This document shows positions 2,777-18,470 of a stretch of DNA of 55,764 nucleotides, piece by piece. The position numbers were made by a program, and so were the translations under genes. The stretch is from a virus (taxonomy: Duplodnaviria > Caudoviricetes), in the IMG/VR virus record IMGVR_UViG_3300006927_000008, positions 1-55,764 of that record; one strand, written 5' to 3'. The notes below the pieces were generated by a model that was given only the letters and a program-made list of their open reading frames with translations, had not been told where the DNA came from and ran no database searches. Numbering within the stretch: the stretch's first letter is position 1; every line of letters begins with the position of its first letter.

Positions 2777-3474
2777 TATCCATCCTTTGTACAATAGGGG
2801 CAATCACCCCACGTCCCACTGGCGTCAAACCAGTATCTGCCATTACCATGACAGTTTTCACAAGTGCGATTAGGATCTTTGATGAGTTCCTGAATCTCGC
2901 GCATCTTATTATGTACAGCCAGATCGCCATCATACGTTAAAGTTCCGTAATGTGTCGGACAGTATCCTTGTCTGGGTCTTTCCTTAACCCAAATGGGCAT
3001 GAGTTTAAGGAGCCATTCAATAGCATCAATCAACTCTTCTTCACGAGCGTTCACTTCATCCGGATCAACGAATGTCATTTCGAGACGATTGCTGCGCTCG
3101 ATCTCTTCTGTGGTCATCGTCGTATTATCCGGCAGAATTTTTACTGGCTCTCCATCAATAGTATATGGAGATGAAACCACAACATTACTCCAATCGAGTG
3201 CAGGTGTCGCAGCGATGACTGTTTCGAGTTGAATATGGCCATCGAGACCATCAGCCGCAGACATAGTGTCTGGGATGCATTCACCATGAACTGCATCATA
3301 CACATTATCTGTAGGTGTAGTACTTATACTGACACTAAGACTCCCCCAGCGATAGCGAATATAAATCATCCTACCATCTTCAACATGACCTTCCCATTGT
3401 GAGGGGCATGCACTGCAAGTTTGTTTTATTGATACAACCTTTAGGCGATCAATCTTTGTAGGGATCGAACTCAT
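2776..3474 (-). CDS. hypothetical phage protein (C-terminal CxxCxGxG zinc-finger-like)
   Basis: Probable start MSSIPTK overlapping the rtcB end; CENCHGNG...CPYC. Confidence 0.6.
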   Translation of the reverse strand: MSSIPTKIDRLKVVSIKQTCSACPSQWEGHVEDGRMIYIRYRWGSLSVSISTTPTDNVYDAVHGECIPDTMSAADGLDGHIQLETVIAATPALDWSNVVVSSPYTIDGEPVKILPDNTTMTTEEIERSNRLEMTFVDPDEVNAREEELIDAIEWLLKLMPIWVKERPRQGYCPTHYGTLTYDGDLAVHNKMREIQELIKDPNRTCENCHGNGRYWFDASGTWGDCPYCTKDG

Positions 3475-4645
3475 TTTTACCTGCCATGGCGACCCCAATT
3501 GGTGTAAGCTCTTCGATGATCTCGATGGAGTCGCCTTGGTGTGCGAGAACATCAGTCAATCTCTTATATGCATAAGGTGATTCATCAACACCAGCACCTC
3601 TAAGCTCGATTCGTACTGGACGATCATCAAGCCAATCGGTTACCATGTCATCTGAAATCTCCTTCTTTGCCTGTGAACGGGACATTACACGGCCAGCTCC
3701 ATGAACAGTGGAGAACATGTTGGCTGCTCCACCTTCTGACTCCTTGCCCTTAATGATAACAGAGTTATCTCCCATGGAACCACCAACGAATCCATGTTGA
3801 CCAGGGAATGCTGGAGTGGCTCCCTTACGAACTACGTAGATCATTTCACCATAATGCTCTTCAAGCCAAGTAAAGTTATGGTGGTTATGAACTTCACCTG
3901 TGATCTTCCCGCCGATGATATCAGTCACTGTATCACATACCCAATCCCTTCCCATATAGGCATACAGACCAGCTAACTCCATTGCCTTCAGATATTCACG
4001 GCCGAGATCTGTGTCCATATCCAGCAATGCTGGCTCAGCGAAGAATCCACCTGATACCTTGGCGGTTCCAAACTGCTCCAAATATGCAAGCTTGATATAT
4101 TCTGTAGCGATCTTGTATCCAAAACCACGAGAGCCAAAATGGACACCAATCCATACGTATCCCTTTTTATCGAAAAAGAGATCGACAAAGTGGTTACCTG
4201 ATCCGATAGTTCCAAGCTGCTGGTGAGCTATGTCACTCAAGCTAGCCACATGTGGAATATCCCATGCTGGATGTTGAGAAACCGCCGCAGTCGAAGTAAA
4301 GTTAGGTGCCTTCTTGTTGGAGTTCTTACGTCCAACACCAAAGTCGATCGAGTTCCAGATCTCATCCATGAAGTCAGAGACATCCTCACGAATATCTTCG
4401 TACTTCACATCGAGCTGAACAGCCTTGTTTCCACATGCGATGTCATATCCAACTCCCGAAGGAGACACCATGTTGCGGTAACCAATGACTCCACCAATTG
4501 GCATTGAATAGCCCAAGTGATGATCAGCCATCAAAGCTCCATGGACTGCATCACCCATATCTGGGTTCATACAGATCTCCATCTGCTTCTCTGCATCCCA
4601 ATCTATAGGATCTCCATGAATAGGCATTCCATTTACAATCAACAT
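3449..4645 (-). CDS. rtcB: RtcB family RNA ligase
   Basis: Motifs VGYDIACG, GTIGSGNHF, HFGSRG, HHN, RKGATPA, HGAGRVMSR, DESPYAYK; AGGAG RBS. Confidence 0.95.
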   Translation of the reverse strand: MLIVNGMPIHGDPIDWDAEKQMEICMNPDMGDAVHGALMADHHLGYSMPIGGVIGYRNMVSPSGVGYDIACGNKAVQLDVKYEDIREDVSDFMDEIWNSIDFGVGRKNSNKKAPNFTSTAAVSQHPAWDIPHVASLSDIAHQQLGTIGSGNHFVDLFFDKKGYVWIGVHFGSRGFGYKIATEYIKLAYLEQFGTAKVSGGFFAEPALLDMDTDLGREYLKAMELAGLYAYMGRDWVCDTVTDIIGGKITGEVHNHHNFTWLEEHYGEMIYVVRKGATPAFPGQHGFVGGSMGDNSVIIKGKESEGGAANMFSTVHGAGRVMSRSQAKKEISDDMVTDWLDDRPVRIELRGAGVDESPYAYKRLTDVLAHQGDSIEIIEELTPIGVAMAGKNEFDPYKD

Positions 4646-11079: not shown

Positions 11080-11172
11080 TGGAGGACCAGAAGGGAATCG
11101 AACCCTCAATGTGTCGTTAACTGTTGCTAGGTTAAAAGCCTAGTGCTGACAACCACTATCAGCGTCTGGTCC
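11080..11172 (-). tRNA. tRNA-Lys(TTT) with long variable region
   Basis: CTAGG-CTTTTAA-CCTAG, about 19-nt variable region, CCA. Confidence 0.7.
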
Positions 11173-11291: not shown

Positions 11292-11363
11292 TGGTTGCAG
11301 GACTGGGTTTCGATCCCAACGTCTCGGGGTTATGATTCCTGAGTGGTCGCCAGACCTCCTGCA
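11292..11363 (-). tRNA. divergent initiator-like tRNA-Met(CAT)
   Basis: TGCAGG...CCTGCAACCA acceptor, CAT loop, tiny D arm, mismatched anticodon stem. Confidence 0.5.
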
Positions 11364-11639: not shown

Positions 11640-11909
11640 TTACGGTTTAAACTTCTTCACGACTGTTGTCACGACCTCAGCTTCGTCAATGATATGAGGA
11701 TATAGATTTGCTGTATCCACAATGTCAAAAAGCTCAGCCATAATCTTCAAGTTCTCTTCATAAGTCCGTGTGGTCCATTGGTCCATAAACCATTTGATCT
11801 CTGCTTCATCACAACCACTCTGCTTCATAGCATTTCTGGCTGTGGCCATCAATACGAAAGCATTTCCATCAGGACCTGAAAGATCGATGATTAACTGAGG
11901 CTTATTCAT
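11640..11909 (-). CDS. phage hypothetical protein (GPDGNAF motif)
   Basis: GAAAGGTT RBS; IDLSGPDGNAF motif I recognise from phage proteins. Confidence 0.7.
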   Translation of the reverse strand: MNKPQLIIDLSGPDGNAFVLMATARNAMKQSGCDEAEIKWFMDQWTTRTYEENLKIMAELFDIVDTANLYPHIIDEAEVVTTVVKKFKP

Positions 11910-11927
11910 TGTAACCTTTCTTTGTTA

Positions 11928-12107
11928 TGGCGCAGTGGGGAGGAATCGAACCTATATCATTTCGCTATTACCTGTCGGCAATCCGCCATCGCAGGGGTCA
12001 TATGTATTTCTCTACTGACGGAAAGTAGATTCACATACGAACTGATATAAAATGATAGCCGACCTTCTCATAGATAATGAGGCGCTCTACCACTAAACTA
12101 CCACCGC
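11928..12107 (-). tRNA. tRNA-Asp-like (anticodon ATC) interrupted by a 105-nt structured insert in the T-stem
   Basis: Removing 11954-12058 restores GCGGTGG...CTCA-TTATCTA-TGAG...GGAGG-TTCGATT-CCTCC-CCACTGC-G-CCA. Confidence 0.7.
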
Positions 12108-12115
12108 ACAAAATA

Positions 12116-12193
12116 TGGTACACGTGAGGGGACTCGAACCCCCATCGACGAGAGTGAAAATCTCGCATCCTAGTCCAATTAGACGACACGTGC
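12116..12193 (-). tRNA. tRNA-Glu(TTC)
   Basis: CGAGA-TTTTCAC-TCTCG, CCA. Confidence 0.9.
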
Positions 12194-12200
12194 ATATTAA

Positions 12201-12306
12201 CTAGCGAGGTTCAAAAGGTATCTCGAGATTTCCTCTATTCCCCCTTACCAACGACTTAATCCTTCAGGGATTCGAACCCTATTTTCCCCCTCACGGCAAC
12301 ATCCCC
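12201..12306 (-). ncRNA. candidate T-arm-containing non-tRNA RNA
   Basis: AGGG-TTCGAAT-CCCT hairpin inside a GTGAGG/CCTCGC helix; no CCA or anticodon arm. Confidence 0.4.
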
Positions 12307-12310
12307 ATTA

Positions 12311-12387
12311 TGGTGGGCGCCAAGGGTAACGATCCCTTTATCTTCCGCGTATCAGACGGAGGCATTTACCATTTATGCTAGACGCCT
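12311..12387 (-). tRNA. tRNA-Ile(GAT)
   Basis: TCCGT-CTGATAC-GCGGA, CCA; atypical T-loop ATCGTTA. Confidence 0.8.
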
Positions 12388-12445
12388 ACAGTACTTTTTC
12401 TTGCCTTGCCAACCCCAACTCTCTGTCTTAGAACCTTTCATATTA

Positions 12446-12519
12446 TGGCGGAACCGAGGGGCCATGATCCCCCACCTACTCCCGTGACAGGGGAGTGCTC
12501 TACATTAAGCTACGATTCC
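12446..12519 (-). tRNA. tRNA-Asp(GTC)
   Basis: CTCCC-CTGTCAC-GGGAG, G73, CCA. Confidence 0.85.
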
Positions 12520-15738: not shown

Positions 15739-15836
15739 ATAGTCAATATCGAACTCAAACAGTTTTTAATGCAATTGGCCTGAAAAATTAATTCAGTTGA
15801 TACTCAGAGCCACGTAGAGGCTTGCATTGTTCTGAG

Positions 15837-15914
15837 TGGTTGACCGACGGGACTCGAACCCGCATACTCTCGATTCACAGTCGAGAACCTTAATTCCTTT
15901 AGGCTACGGTCAAC
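15837..15914 (-). tRNA. tRNA-His(GTG)
   Basis: CTCGA-CTGTGAA-TCGAG. Confidence 0.85.
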
Positions 15915-15942: not shown

Positions 15943-16015
15943 TGGCACGGGTAGTAGGTATCGATCCCACTGCGATCGGGTTTGGAATCCAATCCGCTGG
16001 CCACAGCTTACCCGT
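15943..16015 (-). tRNA. tRNA-Trp(CCA)
   Basis: Loop TT-CCA-AA, G73, CCA; short D arm. Confidence 0.7.
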
Positions 16016-16272: not shown

Positions 16273-16459
16273 AAAGCGGAGCTCTATTCCATTAGGCCAT
16301 CACACCCGAAACGGACAGAATTGAAACACTGAAAACGTGATAAGCGAATCAGACGTTCAATTCCCCTCCTATCATTTGAAGCATCCGGATGGTGGCCGGA
16401 ATCTCTTGGCGAGCGAAAGTCGCCAAGGCTCTGTCTACCGATATTTGAGCTATGCTTCA
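16273..16459 (-). ncRNA. tRNA-like cloverleaf (16377-16459) with a 3' extension able to refold it
   Basis: TGAAGCA/TGCTTCA, GCTC/GAGC, CTTGGCGA-CTTTCGC-TCGCCAAG, TCCGG-CCACCAT-CCGGA; no CCA. Confidence 0.55.
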
Positions 16460-16462
16460 TAA

Positions 16463-16554
16463 TGGCTGGGGAAGTAGGACTCGAACCTACGTACCGTTTT
16501 CAACCGGTCGACCGCATTAACAGTGCGGGGCATTGCCAACTCTGCCACCTCGGT
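16463..16554 (-). tRNA. chimeric long-variable-arm tRNA with Asn(GTT) anticodon and non-pairing acceptor stem
   Basis: CCGCA-CTGTTAA-TGCGG; last 28 nt identical to the tRNA at 16701; 5' ACCGAGG does not pair with TTCCCCA. Confidence 0.55.
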
Positions 16555-16684
16555 ATATTTCTGTGTCTTCTTCAAGATCAATTTCATGACCACATTTGCA
16601 TCTGAAGTATCTGCCAGTGTCATCAACTCTTCGGTGACGATGGATCCAGTCTTCGTGGAAATTGCAGCCTTGATCTTCTTTCAT
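16517..16684 (-). CDS. 55-aa His/Cys-rich peptide
   Basis: GAAAGGTT RBS; MKEDQGCNFHEDWIHRHRRVDDTGRYFRCKCGHEIDL...; stop falls in the next tRNA anticodon loop. Confidence 0.45.
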   Translation of the reverse strand: MKEDQGCNFHEDWIHRHRRVDDTGRYFRCKCGHEIDLEEDTEIYRGGRVGNAPHC

Positions 16685-16700
16685 GATAACCTTTCAATAA

Positions 16701-16778
16701 TGGCTGGGGAAGTAGGACTCGAACCTACCTCATTTCCGGTTAACAGCCGGACGCTATCGCCTGGACAGCTCTTCCCCA
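16701..16778 (-). tRNA. tRNA-Asn(GTT)
   Basis: TCCGG-CTGTTAA-CCGGA, G73, CCA. Confidence 0.85.
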
Positions 16779-16786
16779 ATATATTA

Positions 16787-16863
16787 TGGTCAGGGTGGAA
16801 GGATTCGCACCCTCGGCTTCCTCGCCCCAAACGAGGCACTCTACTGGACTGAGTTACACCCTG
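16787..16863 (-). tRNA. tRNA-Pro(TGG)
   Basis: CCTCG-TTTGGGG-CGAGG, C1-G72, CCA. Confidence 0.9.
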
Positions 16864-17240
16864 ACGTATTCTTGTATAATACTCTCAACTAGAGAGCGGT
16901 GCTTCGAATGATAGTACTGATGATGGTTTGGACAAATTGGAACCAAATTCTTTGGGTCGTGATTTGTTTTATCGCCATCTGCATGATGAACCTCCACTGC
17001 AAGTTCTTCGCCGCATACTATACATTTCTTTTCATGGTGTGCAAAACATATCTTCCTATAGTTCTGGCCTTTCCAACAGCCATTATTTTCTCCACTACGA
17101 AAATATTTATTGGAACAGGCATAACCACATGTCTGCTTCTCTTTAGGACAACCTTTTTTTGCTTCAAATTCATCCCCACAAACCGGACAATTCTTCTTTA
17201 TCCACGGATACTGTGGGTTCTTCGTATATTGATTGGCCAT
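16854..17240 (-). CDS. HNH homing endonuclease
   Basis: CPVC, CGYAC, CIVCG, EVHHADGDKTNHDPKNLVPICPNHH. Confidence 0.85.
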   Translation of the reverse strand: MANQYTKNPQYPWIKKNCPVCGDEFEAKKGCPKEKQTCGYACSNKYFRSGENNGCWKGQNYRKICFAHHEKKCIVCGEELAVEVHHADGDKTNHDPKNLVPICPNHHQYYHSKHRSLVESIIQEYVRV

Positions 17241-17310
17241 TGCATTCCCCTTTCGCAATAAATATCATTGCCTAAGGTTTGGAATACATCCAAATCAATA
17301 GCACATATTA

Positions 17311-17385
17311 TGGAGGCCCCGTTGGGAGTCGAACCCAATAGGAAATCGCTTTGCAGGCGACCCGCTTGCCGTTGGCTTCGGAGCC
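17311..17385 (-). tRNA. tRNA-Cys(GCA)
   Basis: Loop CT-GCA-AA, U73, CCA. Confidence 0.85.
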
Positions 17386-18076: not shown

Positions 18077-18151
18077 TGGAAGCGGGCGAGGTTGCTGCCA
18101 CCTCTAGCTACCCGGATTATGAGTCCGGGAGGATCACTGGATCTACCCGCG
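18077..18151 (-). tRNA. tRNA-Met(CAT), initiator-like, atypical T-loop
   Basis: CGCGGG start with 1:72 mismatch; CCGGA-CTCATAA-TCCGG; CCA. Confidence 0.65.
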
Positions 18152-18191: not shown

Positions 18192-18319
18192 TGAAGATGT
18201 GGAGTCGAACCACTTGCGAACCTGCTCGGCCAGCGTCCTTTGACGGAGCCTCTGAGGAATCGAACCTCTTTCATCCCGTGTCCGCGGAGACATTAGGGAA
18301 ACCACCAACGGCGTCTTCA
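18192..18319 (-). ncRNA. tRNA-like RNA with two T-arms
   Basis: TGAAGA/TCTTCA closure; GAGG-TTCGATT-CCTC and GTGG-TTCGACT-CCAC. Confidence 0.55.
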
Positions 18320-18324
18320 AAATA

Positions 18325-18400
18325 TGGAGGGGTATACGGGAATCGAACCCGTCTATCTTGGTTGGAAGCCAAGCATCTTATACCGATGGATCAATACCCC
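18325..18400 (-). tRNA. tRNA-Gly(TCC)
   Basis: CTTGG-CTTCCAA-CCAAG, U73, CCA. Confidence 0.9.
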
Positions 18401-18407
18401 AAAACTA

Positions 18408-18470
18408 TGATGGAGATGGATGGGAATCGAACCCGCGTCTTCCGGTACTCTGCCACTGAGTTACCATCCC
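18408..18470 (-). ncRNA. tRNA-like RNA without anticodon arm
   Basis: GGGATGG-TA-ACTC-AGTGGCA-GAGT-ACCGGAAGAC-GCGGG-TTCGATT-CCCAT-CCATCTC-CATCA. Confidence 0.6.

What the first reader, a model, noticed from the sequence alone, without database searches (positions are those of the whole stretch)
11928..12107. tRNA body interrupted by a 105-nt three-way-junction insert in the T-stem, with an ATC anticodon
Seen: deleting 11954-12058 yields a complete cloverleaf with G73-CCA. The insert splits the T-stem 5' strand (GG|AGG), is closed by TATCATTT/AAATGATA and has two arms (CGTATGT/ACATATG with TCTAC/GTAGA; CCTG/CAGG with GGC/GCC). The anticodon loop TTATCTA gives ATC (Asp codon GAT) with a pyrimidine at position 37, both abnormal. 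Established: bacterial tRNA introns are usually group I, longer, and in the anticodon loop; T-arm introns are known from archaea and need a bulge-helix-bulge, which I could not identify here. Inference: either an intron rejoined by the phage RtcB or a tRNA scaffold displaying a separate RNA domain.
Basis: partly seen in the sequence, partly recalled or inferred. Interest (0 to 1): 0.72.

Follow-up and report, generated by a model that had tools for sequence, protein, structure and literature searches.

The report
Phage tRNA-like gene with T-stem insert
A marine giant-phage tRNA cluster holds one tRNA-shaped gene whose T-stem is interrupted by a self-folding 105-base module; it is real DNA, so far unique, and probably makes a stable tRNA-like RNA rather than a decoding tRNA, though nothing shows what it does.

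Summary
On the minus strand, 11928-12107 is a complete class-I cloverleaf with an encoded G73-CCA. It is interrupted between T-stem positions 50 and 51 by 105 nt (11954-12058). The insert folds well on its own (z -3.7, 0 of 200 shuffles) and is closed by an 8-9 bp terminal helix, seen in 95 of 200,000 random 105-mers.

Independent marine assemblies carry the insert, so it is not a chimera. Their only difference, C66>U, keeps the G7 pair.

The loop UUAUCUA (A34, U37) argues against decoding. The acceptor has G3.U70, otherwise found only in the phage's tRNA-Ala.

I found:
- no bulge-helix-bulge motif
- no splicing endonuclease
- no Rfam ribozyme or group I match
- no second copy
- no homologue in three distant relatives, 19 metagenome loci or exact-word scans
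- no RNA reads over the element

My best reading (0.4) is a tRNA-scaffolded stable RNA that keeps the insert. The rivals are a dead tRNA gene (0.3) and an excised intervening sequence rejoined by RtcB (0.2). It is an orphan without covariation, so interest is moderate.

The parts
12059..12107 (-). 5' part of the tRNA-like body: acceptor 5' strand (G3 at 12105), D arm, anticodon-like arm, variable loop AGGUC and T-stem positions 49-50 (GG)
   Evidence: Sequence read; Rfam tRNA alignment; ARAGORN cloverleaf of the insert-deleted form
12071..12077 (-). Anticodon-like loop UUAUCUA (U33, A34-U35-C36, U37, A38)
   Evidence: A pyrimidine at 37 and A34 in a two-codon box are abnormal for a decoder (established tRNA knowledge)
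11954..12058 (-). 105-nt insert between T-stem positions 50 and 51
   Evidence: Fold z -3.71, 0 of 200 shuffles; single copy in the window
12049..12057 (-). 5' strand of the insert's closing helix (pairs with 11955-11963)
   Evidence: Pair probabilities 0.87-0.99; terminal pairing seen in 95 of 200,000 random 105-mers
11955..11963 (-). 3' strand of the insert's closing helix
11998..12040 (-). Long arm of the insert: a 9-bp and a 6-bp helix separated by an internal loop, with a 7-nt hairpin loop
   Evidence: Pair probabilities 0.99-1.0
11983..11994 (-). Small hairpin 2 of the insert (4 bp, loop GAUG)
   Evidence: MFE; probabilities 0.81-0.89
11967..11982 (-). Small hairpin 3 of the insert (6 bp, loop GACA)
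   Evidence: MFE; probabilities 0.85-0.98
11928..11953 (-). 3' part of the body: T-stem 51-53 (AGG), T loop UUCGAUU, T-stem 3' strand CCUCC, acceptor 3' strand (U70 at 11934), G73 and encoded CCA
   Evidence: CCA is followed by UA, as in 24 of the 33 other tRNAs of the cluster
11938..11938 (-). Population variant G>A on the plus strand. It is C66>U in the RNA and turns G7-C66 into G7.U66
   Evidence: Run X9, one contig, depth 14.1
12116..12193 (-). Upstream neighbour tRNA-Glu(UUC), 8 nt from the element's 5' end
11640..11909 (-). Downstream neighbour: an 89-aa ORF starting 18 nt after the CCA (PHROG 1933, unknown function)
   Evidence: (E 1.2e-12)
3449..4645 (-). Phage RtcB RNA ligase, 7.3 kb away
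   Evidence: Pfam RtcB, E 1.5e-71

Best explanation
The gene makes a stable RNA of about 180 nt that is tRNA-shaped but does not decode.

Inferred pathway:
- It is transcribed with its neighbours in the tRNA cluster.
- It is trimmed at its 5' end and at its encoded CCA by the enzymes that mature the surrounding tRNAs.
- It keeps the 105-nt module, which projects from the side of the T stem next to where long variable arms emerge.

The tRNA body would then serve as a folding, processing and stability scaffold, and the insert as the working domain. That domain could be a protein-binding or decoy surface in the phage-host contest over tRNAs.

Shown: the anatomy, the fold statistics, and the presence of the insert in independent DNA samples.

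Inferred: transcription, processing, retention of the insert, and any function. The G3.U70 pair makes charging with alanine possible, but this is untested.
For: - The body is intact where a tRNA shape needs it: 7/7 acceptor, 4/4 D-stem and 5/5 T-stem pairs. U8, A14, G18-G19, A21, G15:C48, G26:A44, G53:C61, U54:A58, U55 and C56 are all present (sequence).
- The only population difference seen inside it keeps a pair, G7-C66 to G7.U66.
- Its flanks match the cluster. CCA is followed by UA, as in 24 of 33 other tRNAs, against a background UA frequency of 0.06. It lies 8 nt after tRNA-Glu and 18 nt before an ORF.
- No promoter-like or terminator-like site lies inside it.
- The anticodon loop has A34 and U37. 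The acceptor carries G3.U70, found in 1 of 33 other rows, the phage's tRNA-Ala. Both are hard to reconcile with a specific decoder.
- The insert is a discrete folded module: z -3.71 and a closing helix with p about 5e-4.
- No cleavage motif or endonuclease that could remove it was found.
- Engineered tRNA scaffolds show that E. coli processes and stabilises tRNA-RNA fusions (PMC3753655, passages read).
- T4 makes two small RNAs of unknown role from its tRNA region (PMC3014915, passage read).
Against: - There is no homologue, so no covariation. Model R1 matched only itself in 1 of 4 phage records. It matched nothing in 22 loci of 208,602 bases or in 5 further loci.
- No RNA evidence exists. The one RNA run laid covers only 12296-12500.
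- By energy alone the 180 nt prefers a fold in which the D region pairs with the insert's 5' strand: -53.5 against -44.3 to -46.5 kcal/mol, with D-stem and outer T-stem pair probabilities at or below 0.004.
- No antisense target longer than 12 nt was found in the window, which is about chance level.
- An insert at 50/51 sits where EF-Tu and perhaps RNase P touch the T stem (recalled structural knowledge), so even processing is not assured.
- Decayed tRNA pieces exist in the same cluster. A neutral relic therefore cannot be dismissed.
Confidence: 0.4

Rival explanations
1. This is a dead or dying tRNA gene. A tRNA, Asp-like by its variable loop, G73 and xUC anticodon, was hit by a 105-bp palindromic or mobile piece of DNA. 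Its inverted ends pair automatically in RNA. The gene has since begun to decay in the anticodon arm and by C>U changes in stems.
For: - The defects cluster where function would be lost first: the C27.A43 mismatch, A34 and U37.
- G3.U70 and the population variant C66>U are both what C>U drift in a stem produces.
- The cluster holds other wreckage. There is a 32-nt exact duplicate of the tRNA-Asn 3' end, with a broken acceptor stem and a small ORF between the copies. There is also an orphan T-arm in an unstructured 117-nt spacer.
- An HNH endonuclease gene sits in the cluster.
- All 20 amino acids are already served by other tRNAs, so this gene is dispensable.
- No relative carries anything like it.
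Against: - Every stem outside the anticodon arm is still perfect and every tertiary-contact base is kept.
- The insert sits with no target-site duplication, and removing it restores all five T-stem pairs.
- No second copy of the insert is in the 55.8-kb window.
- No real match came from exact-word scans. Of the three probes taken from the insert, two brought only chance matches and one none.
- No Y1 transposase is in the window.
- The interior is a multi-helix fold with z -3.7, not a single long hairpin.
- The gene is packed tightly between a tRNA and an ORF in a compact cluster.
Confidence: 0.3
2. The insert is an intervening sequence that is cut out of the precursor. The two halves are joined by the phage RtcB to give a 75-nt tRNA with anticodon AUC. 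That tRNA would read GAU, the phage's heavily used Asp codon.
For: - Precise removal yields a canonical 75-nt cloverleaf.
- The closing helix brings the two T-stem halves together.
- RtcB is encoded 7 kb away.
- An HDV-like self-cleaving ribozyme abuts tRNA-His in the same cluster. RNA ends of the kind RtcB joins are therefore made here (ribozyme chemistry recalled).
- GAU outnumbers GAC 411 to 156 in 18 long ORFs and makes up 5.3% of their codons.
Against: - There is no bulge-helix-bulge at the junctions. The central helix has 2 of 4 or 3 of 4 pairs in the two geometries, and by my reading no outer helix.
- No EndA domain is in the window.
- No Rfam ribozyme or group I match reaches E <= 10.
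- The 9-bp closing helix is short for RNase III, whose ends RtcB does not join (recalled).
- No contig joins across the insert.
- The product would have A34 in a split codon box, U37, a G3.U70 alanine mark and a mismatched 27:43 pair, so it would be a poor or mischarged tRNA.
- A normal tRNA-Asp(GUC) already exists at 12446-12519.
Confidence: 0.2
3. It is an alanine-accepting, tmRNA-like or otherwise charged tRNA mimic. AlaRS would charge it through G3.U70, and the extra domain would direct the Ala-RNA to a non-canonical task.
For: - G3.U70 with G4-C69 is present in the acceptor. These are two of the five bacterial alanine determinants listed in PMC9976931 (identity table passage). Among 33 other rows only the phage's tRNA-Ala has G3.U70.
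- As in tmRNA, the large insertion lies just 5' of the T arm.
- A distant relative carries a tmRNA inside its tRNA cluster.
Against: - A73, G2-C71 and G20 are not met: the element has G73, C2-G71 and U20.
- Neither ARAGORN nor the Rfam tmRNA models match it.
- It has full D and anticodon arms, no pseudoknots and no convincing tag frame (my reading).
- One G.U pair can arise by chance.
Confidence: 0.05

Closest known systems
Archaeal non-canonical (bulge-helix-bulge) tRNA introns, including T-arm positions
   Same: A short insert interrupts a tRNA gene outside the anticodon loop. Precise removal restores a perfect cloverleaf. An RtcB-type ligase is encoded nearby.
   Different: There is no 3-4-3 bulge-helix-bulge at the junctions and no EndA domain in the window. 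The carrier is a bacterial virus. A review states that bacterial tRNA genes are known to carry only group I and II introns, next to the anticodon (PMC4033280, passages read).
Group I introns of bacterial and phage tRNA genes
   Same: It interrupts a tRNA gene in the bacterial world.
   Different: Those introns sit in the anticodon loop and need a catalytic core of roughly 100 nt within about 10 helices (PMC4033280, passage). Here the insert is 105 nt in all, sits in the T stem and matches no Rfam intron model.
Long variable arms of class II tRNAs, nematode nev-tRNAs and allo-tRNAs
   Same: An extra helix projects from the hinge beside the T stem. This phage lineage often puts long variable regions on class I tRNAs: Lys of 93 nt in the window, and Glu 92, Thr 90, His 90 and Asn 100 nt in relative G001.
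   Different: Variable arms leave between positions 44 and 48 and are about 10-30 nt. This module leaves two base pairs further on (50/51), after a normal 5-nt variable loop. It is 105 nt with three hairpins.
Engineered tRNA scaffolds, and natural small RNAs made from tRNA clusters (T4 RNAC and RNAD)
   Same: A tRNA body provides the processing signals and the stability for a foreign structured RNA (PMC3753655, passages). T4 makes two small RNAs of unknown role from its tRNA region (PMC3014915, passage).
   Different: Scaffolds replace the anticodon stem-loop. Here the anticodon arm is kept and the graft is in the T stem. I did not compare it with the T4 RNAs by sequence.
tmRNA
   Same: It is a tRNA-like RNA with G3.U70 and CCA, and it has a large insertion 5' of the T arm. 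tmRNA occurs in phage tRNA clusters (relative G001).
   Different: It keeps its D and anticodon arms and has no pseudoknots or tag frame. The tmRNA models do not match it.
Intervening sequences of bacterial rRNA (removed by RNase III without re-ligation; recalled)
   Same: A helix-closed insert sits inside a helix of a stable RNA.
   Different: Those are in rRNA and have long closing helices. Here the closing helix is 9 bp and the host RNA is a tRNA.

Membership tests
Canonical tRNA (Rfam RF00005 / ARAGORN) | Scores at or above the family's gathering threshold as it stands in the genome | tested here: not met
   24.8 bits against 29; not listed at the gathering threshold; no ARAGORN call, with or without intron mode
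Canonical tRNA (Rfam RF00005 / ARAGORN) | Cloverleaf with the conserved tertiary-contact bases | tested here: met
   After the insert is removed in a script, ARAGORN draws a 75-nt cloverleaf with 7/4/4/5 paired stems. U8, A14, GG, A21, G15:C48, G53:C61 and UUCGA are read
Canonical tRNA (Rfam RF00005 / ARAGORN) | Anticodon loop fit for decoding (U33, purine 37, an anticodon used in bacteria) | tested here: not met
   The loop is UUAUCUA: U33 is present, but there is A34 in the Asp/Glu split box and U37
Bulge-helix-bulge tRNA intron | Two 3-nt bulges separated by a 4-bp helix, with the splice sites in the bulges | tested here: not met
   At the only junctions that restore the T stem, the central helix has 2 of 4 pairs (both G.U) or 3 of 4, with no outer helix (and my reading of it). 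My lax scan gave 76 hits anywhere in the 180 nt, so it is not specific
Bulge-helix-bulge tRNA intron | A splicing endonuclease (EndA family) is available | tested here: inconclusive
   Pfam PF01974 gave 0 matches in six frames of the window. The window is only about 26% of the phage and the host is unknown
Bulge-helix-bulge tRNA intron | An RNA ligase for 2',3'-cyclic phosphate and 5'-OH ends | tested here: met
   RtcB at 3449-4645, E 1.5e-71
Group I intron in a tRNA gene | Located in the anticodon loop, with a conserved catalytic core | tested here: not met
   The insert is at T-stem 50/51, is 105 nt long and has no Rfam intron match at E <= 10
Small self-cleaving ribozymes (hammerhead, HDV-like, twister, pistol, hatchet, hairpin) | Match to a family model | tested here: not met
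   No such family appears among the 6 matches at E <= 10 in 11850-12320. The same library does find an HDV-like ribozyme elsewhere in the cluster
tmRNA | tRNA-like domain with G3.U70 and CCA | tested here: met
   G at 12105 pairs with U at 11934; CCA is encoded
tmRNA | Tag reading frame, pseudoknots, and a match to tmRNA models | tested here: not met
   ARAGORN finds no tmRNA. The Rfam tmRNA models do not match the element
Miniature mobile element (MITE or IS-derived) | Terminal inverted repeats | tested here: met
   8 contiguous complementary terminal bases; 95 of 200,000 random 105-mers do as well
Miniature mobile element (MITE or IS-derived) | Several copies, a target-site duplication, and a transposase in reach | tested here: not met
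   There is 1 copy in the window. No flanking direct repeat is seen. No Y1 transposase is in the window. Three quarters of the genome is unseen
Y RNA-like (YrlA) with Ro | Match to the YrlA model, and a Ro (TROVE) gene | tested here: not met
   15 bits against a gathering score of 69, and the match spans two genes. TROVE has 0 matches in the window
Class II tRNA (long variable arm) | The extra arm leaves between positions 44 and 48 | tested here: not met
   A normal 5-nt variable loop AGGUC and two T-stem pairs precede the insert

The most novel reading that the evidence does not exclude
This would be a new kind of tRNA intervening sequence in a bacterial virus: a helix-closed, non-BHB, non-group-I insert in the T stem. 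It would be cut out, by an unrecognised ribozyme activity of the insert or by an unknown nuclease. The halves would be rejoined by the phage's own RtcB, yielding an A34 tRNA tuned to GAU, the phage's commonest codon.
Probability: 0.12. Interest if true: 0.85.

Novelty: new variant of a known kind. Interest (0 to 1): 0.45.

Why it matters
Bacterial and phage tRNA genes are regarded as structurally uniform (PMC4033280, passage read). A T-stem insert would be a new gene structure for them.

If the RNA is stable, it would be a natural counterpart of the engineered tRNA scaffold, and a candidate player in the phage-host contest over tRNAs. An abstract seen in a search listing says phage tRNAs are used to evade defences (PMC11555353).

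If it is spliced, it would give phage RtcB a splicing role and reveal a new excision mechanism.

If it is a relic, it shows how tRNA genes die in large phage clusters.

My three literature searches for such a structure listed no paper describing one. I saw titles and abstract starts only.

Tried and rejected
- **Alternative splice frame.** Removing about 102 nt that start inside the anticodon loop gives an ARAGORN 'tRNA-Pyl(cta)', an amber-suppressor-like form with A37. Its T stem has only 3 of 5 pairs, its D stem is shifted and its anticodon stem has a mismatch. ARAGORN intron mode finds nothing in the native sequence. Reading TAG through adds little on the coding strand: 36.5 to 38.4 kb in frames of at least 150 aa. 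Rejected.
- **Homologue hunts that found nothing:**
  - blastn of 231 nt against GenBank phages
  - exact probes from the body and the insert in IMG/VR (0 hits; 2 hits)
  - exact probes in GTDB genomes (0 hits; 3 hits); the 5 hits in all did not match model R1, so they are chance
  - the neighbouring 89-aa ORF and PTH2 as single queries
  - RtcB, which gave one relative at 51% identity
  - a two-sequence PTH2 alignment, which gave 3 viral and 19 metagenome loci, all at 55% identity or less; none has the insert
  - the Rfam tRNA model, whose longest matches in relatives G001-G003 are under 100 nt
- **DNA polymerase III alpha.** It has no cultured-phage relative above 30% identity and no match in G001.
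- **Reads.** Of the four runs laid, none gave a joint. The RNA run does not cover the element, so this is no evidence on expression either way.
- **Antisense targets.** Only three 12-mers were found in the window, about chance level.
- **Promoter or terminator inside the element.** None was found.
- **Other attempts.** Earlier findings of the scan were not open, and relatives cannot be drawn for a virus record.

Full report
**Context.** The window is one IMG/VR virus contig of 55,764 bp. CheckV estimates it at 26% complete, so the phage is about 200 kb. Many marine metagenome runs hold it: 24 were listed, 11 of them with at least half of the sampled words, from 19 studies.

It encodes a DnaE-type polymerase, ribonucleotide reductase, DnaB, RecA, an ATP-dependent ligase, RtcB and a PTH2 peptidyl-tRNA hydrolase. 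It has no cultured relative above 30% identity for the polymerase.

All tRNA genes lie on the minus strand between 9.4 and 18.6 kb. ARAGORN. Rfam adds a 90-nt Lys(UUU), a Cys(GCA), a Trp(CCA) and a 59-nt tRNA-like. All 20 amino acids are therefore served without the element in question.

**The observation.** Read on the minus strand, 11928-12107 is a class-I tRNA body with these parts:
- a 7-bp acceptor stem
- a 4-bp D stem and D loop AGUGGUA
- an anticodon stem of 4 bp plus a C27.A43 mismatch
- loop UUAUCUA
- a standard 5-nt variable loop AGGUC
- GG, then 105 nt, then AGG
- T loop UUCGAUU, then CCUCC
- G73 and an encoded CCA

Every base used for tertiary contacts in tRNA is in place. ARAGORN misses the native gene, also in intron mode. 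Rfam's tRNA model gives 24.8 bits, under its threshold of 29, with the extra bases placed just before the T stem.

With 11954-12058 removed in a script, ARAGORN draws a 75-nt tRNA-Asp(atc) with a 5/5 T stem. ARAGORN is tolerant, however. It called a tRNA for 397 of about 1,224 deletion variants (the total is my count of the loop). The exact boundaries therefore rest on the T-stem pairing and the canonical variable loop, not on the program.

**The insert.** On its own it folds at -31.0 kcal/mol, against -19.3 +/- 3.1 for 200 shuffles (z -3.71, none as good). Its first and last bases form an 8-9 bp helix with pair probabilities of 0.87-0.99. A terminal run of 8 Watson-Crick pairs occurs in only 95 of 200,000 random 105-mers from the window.

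The second arm is not: its pairs have probability 0.02. Two small hairpins (0.81-0.98) are preferred, which makes a four-way junction.

The whole 180 nt does not reach the cloverleaf by energy alone. The MFE is -53.5 kcal/mol, and in that fold the D region pairs with the insert's 5' strand. The cloverleaf with insert scores -44.3 to -46.5. That is not unusual for tRNAs, but it is a caveat.

**Real DNA, not a chimera.** Contigs assembled independently from other runs carry the insert.
- One contig from run X9 spans 11791-12091, covering both junctions.
- One contig from run X14 spans 11972-12122.
- No contig joins across the insert.

The only difference inside the element is G>A at 11938. This is C66>U in the RNA, and it turns G7-C66 into G7.U66. 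The pair is kept, but the change is one-sided. It fits both selection and early C>U decay. The one RNA library laid covers only 12296-12500, so there is no evidence on expression or splicing.

**Is it a decoder?** A34 in the Asp/Glu split box and a pyrimidine at 37 are abnormal. The top pair of the anticodon stem is mismatched.

The acceptor has G3.U70, the main alanine identity mark. The bacterial alanine set listed in PMC9976931 (passage read) is A73, G2-C71, G3.U70, G4-C69 and G20. The element meets two of these five. Among 33 other rows of the cluster only tRNA-Ala has G3.U70. Three further rows were out of register and I dropped them from that count. One of them, the His row, also read G.U at 3:70.

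In favour of a decoding role, GAU is very frequent. It outnumbers GAC 411 to 156 in 18 long ORFs. On balance I think decoding is unlikely.

**Can it be spliced?** At the only junctions that restore the T stem there is no bulge-helix-bulge. The would-be central helix has 2 of 4 or 3 of 4 pairs, without an outer helix. My lax scan is non-specific, giving 76 hits in the 180 nt.

- No EndA domain is in the window.
- No Rfam ribozyme or group I model matches at E <= 10.
- RtcB is present.
- An HDV-like ribozyme sits directly after tRNA-His, so cyclic-phosphate ends are made in this cluster.

Splicing therefore has a ligase but no identified cutter.

**Is it mobile junk?** There is one copy in the window, no target-site duplication and no Y1 transposase. 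Exact probes from the body and the insert found nothing real in IMG/VR or GTDB genomes.

Against that, three quarters of the genome is unseen, and the cluster does hold decayed tRNA pieces.

**Relatives.** Only distant ones could be reached. They comprise three phage records of 161-248 kb and 19 metagenome loci that share PTH2 at 37-55% identity. None has the insert or any tRNA-model match over 100 nt.

They do show a lineage habit of long variable regions on class-I tRNAs. An extra helix next to the T stem is therefore less alien here than elsewhere.

**Verdict.** The anatomy is confirmed and is more than chance. The function is open.

| Reading | Odds |
|---|---|
| Retained-insert, tRNA-scaffolded stable RNA | 0.40 |
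| Dead tRNA gene | 0.30 |
| Excised intervening sequence rejoined by RtcB | 0.20 |
| Alanine-charged mimic | 0.05 |

The remaining 0.05 I leave unassigned.

The flanks match those of working neighbours: CCA is followed by UA in 24 of 33 other tRNAs. No promoter or terminator lies inside the element. Both points favour co-transcription and tRNA-type processing.

Without homologues or RNA reads the case stays moderate. I file it as a new variant of a known kind (disrupted or expanded tRNA-like genes) and score interest at 0.45.

Supplementary files of the papers cited were not seen. They are unlikely to bear on these claims.

Noticed in passing
window 15767-15837 (-): An HDV-like ribozyme (Rfam HDV-F-prausnitzii, 33.5 bits against a gathering score of 44, full-length alignment) starts one base after tRNA-His, whose gene ends ...CC. 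The placement resembles the theta ribozymes described next to phage tRNAs (PMC10879173, abstract start seen).
   Followed up: partly
window 11080-11172 (-); L033 5853-5944, 7212-7301, 7442-7531, 6767-6866 (-): Class-I tRNAs with long variable regions: Lys(UUU) of 93 nt in the window, and Glu 92, Thr 90, His 90 and Asn 100 nt in relative G001. Long variable arms are normally confined to Leu, Ser and bacterial Tyr.
   Followed up: partly
window 11292-11363, 15943-16015, 17311-17385 (-): tRNAs missed by ARAGORN: a CAU tRNA with T loop AUCGAAA, Trp(CCA) with T loop AUCGAUA, and Cys(GCA). The called Asp(GUC) and Ile(GAU) also have non-canonical T loops.
   Followed up: partly
window about 18077-18151 (-): By eye, an initiator-like tRNA: anticodon arm with loop CUCAUAA, an unpaired 1:72, a 4-nt D loop without GG, and T loop GGCAGCA without UUC. 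No tool called it (sequence).
   Followed up: no
window 18412-18470 and 18257-18442 (-): A 59-nt tRNA-model match that seems to lack the anticodon arm (39 bits, above threshold), beside a weak permuted-tmRNA match (24.2 bits against 47) and two orphan T-arm motifs near 18269 and 18214.
   Followed up: no
window 16459-16490 and 16697-16728; ORF 16517-16684 (-): An exact 32-nt duplicate of the tRNA-Asn 3' end. The downstream copy (16463-16547) has a non-pairing acceptor 5' strand. A 55-aa ORF lies between the copies and overlaps that copy's 5' part. An HNH endonuclease gene is at 16854-17258.
   Followed up: partly
window 12194-12310 (-): A 117-nt spacer between tRNA-Ile and tRNA-Glu holds an orphan T-arm (UAGGG UUCGAAU CCCUG). 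It has no CCA and no fold signal (z +0.74). It is probably a decayed tRNA.
   Followed up: partly
window, 33 tRNA 3' flanks: Every tRNA in this count encodes CCA. In 24 of 33 it is followed by UA and in 6 by UU (background UA 0.06). This may be a shared 3' processing signal.
   Followed up: partly
L033 2375-2734 (-); L046 14057-14132; L054 14933-15008: Distant relatives carry a tmRNA inside the tRNA cluster (G001, 94 bits). Two metagenome contigs carry tRNAs with anticodon CUA, the amber-suppressor type.
   Followed up: no
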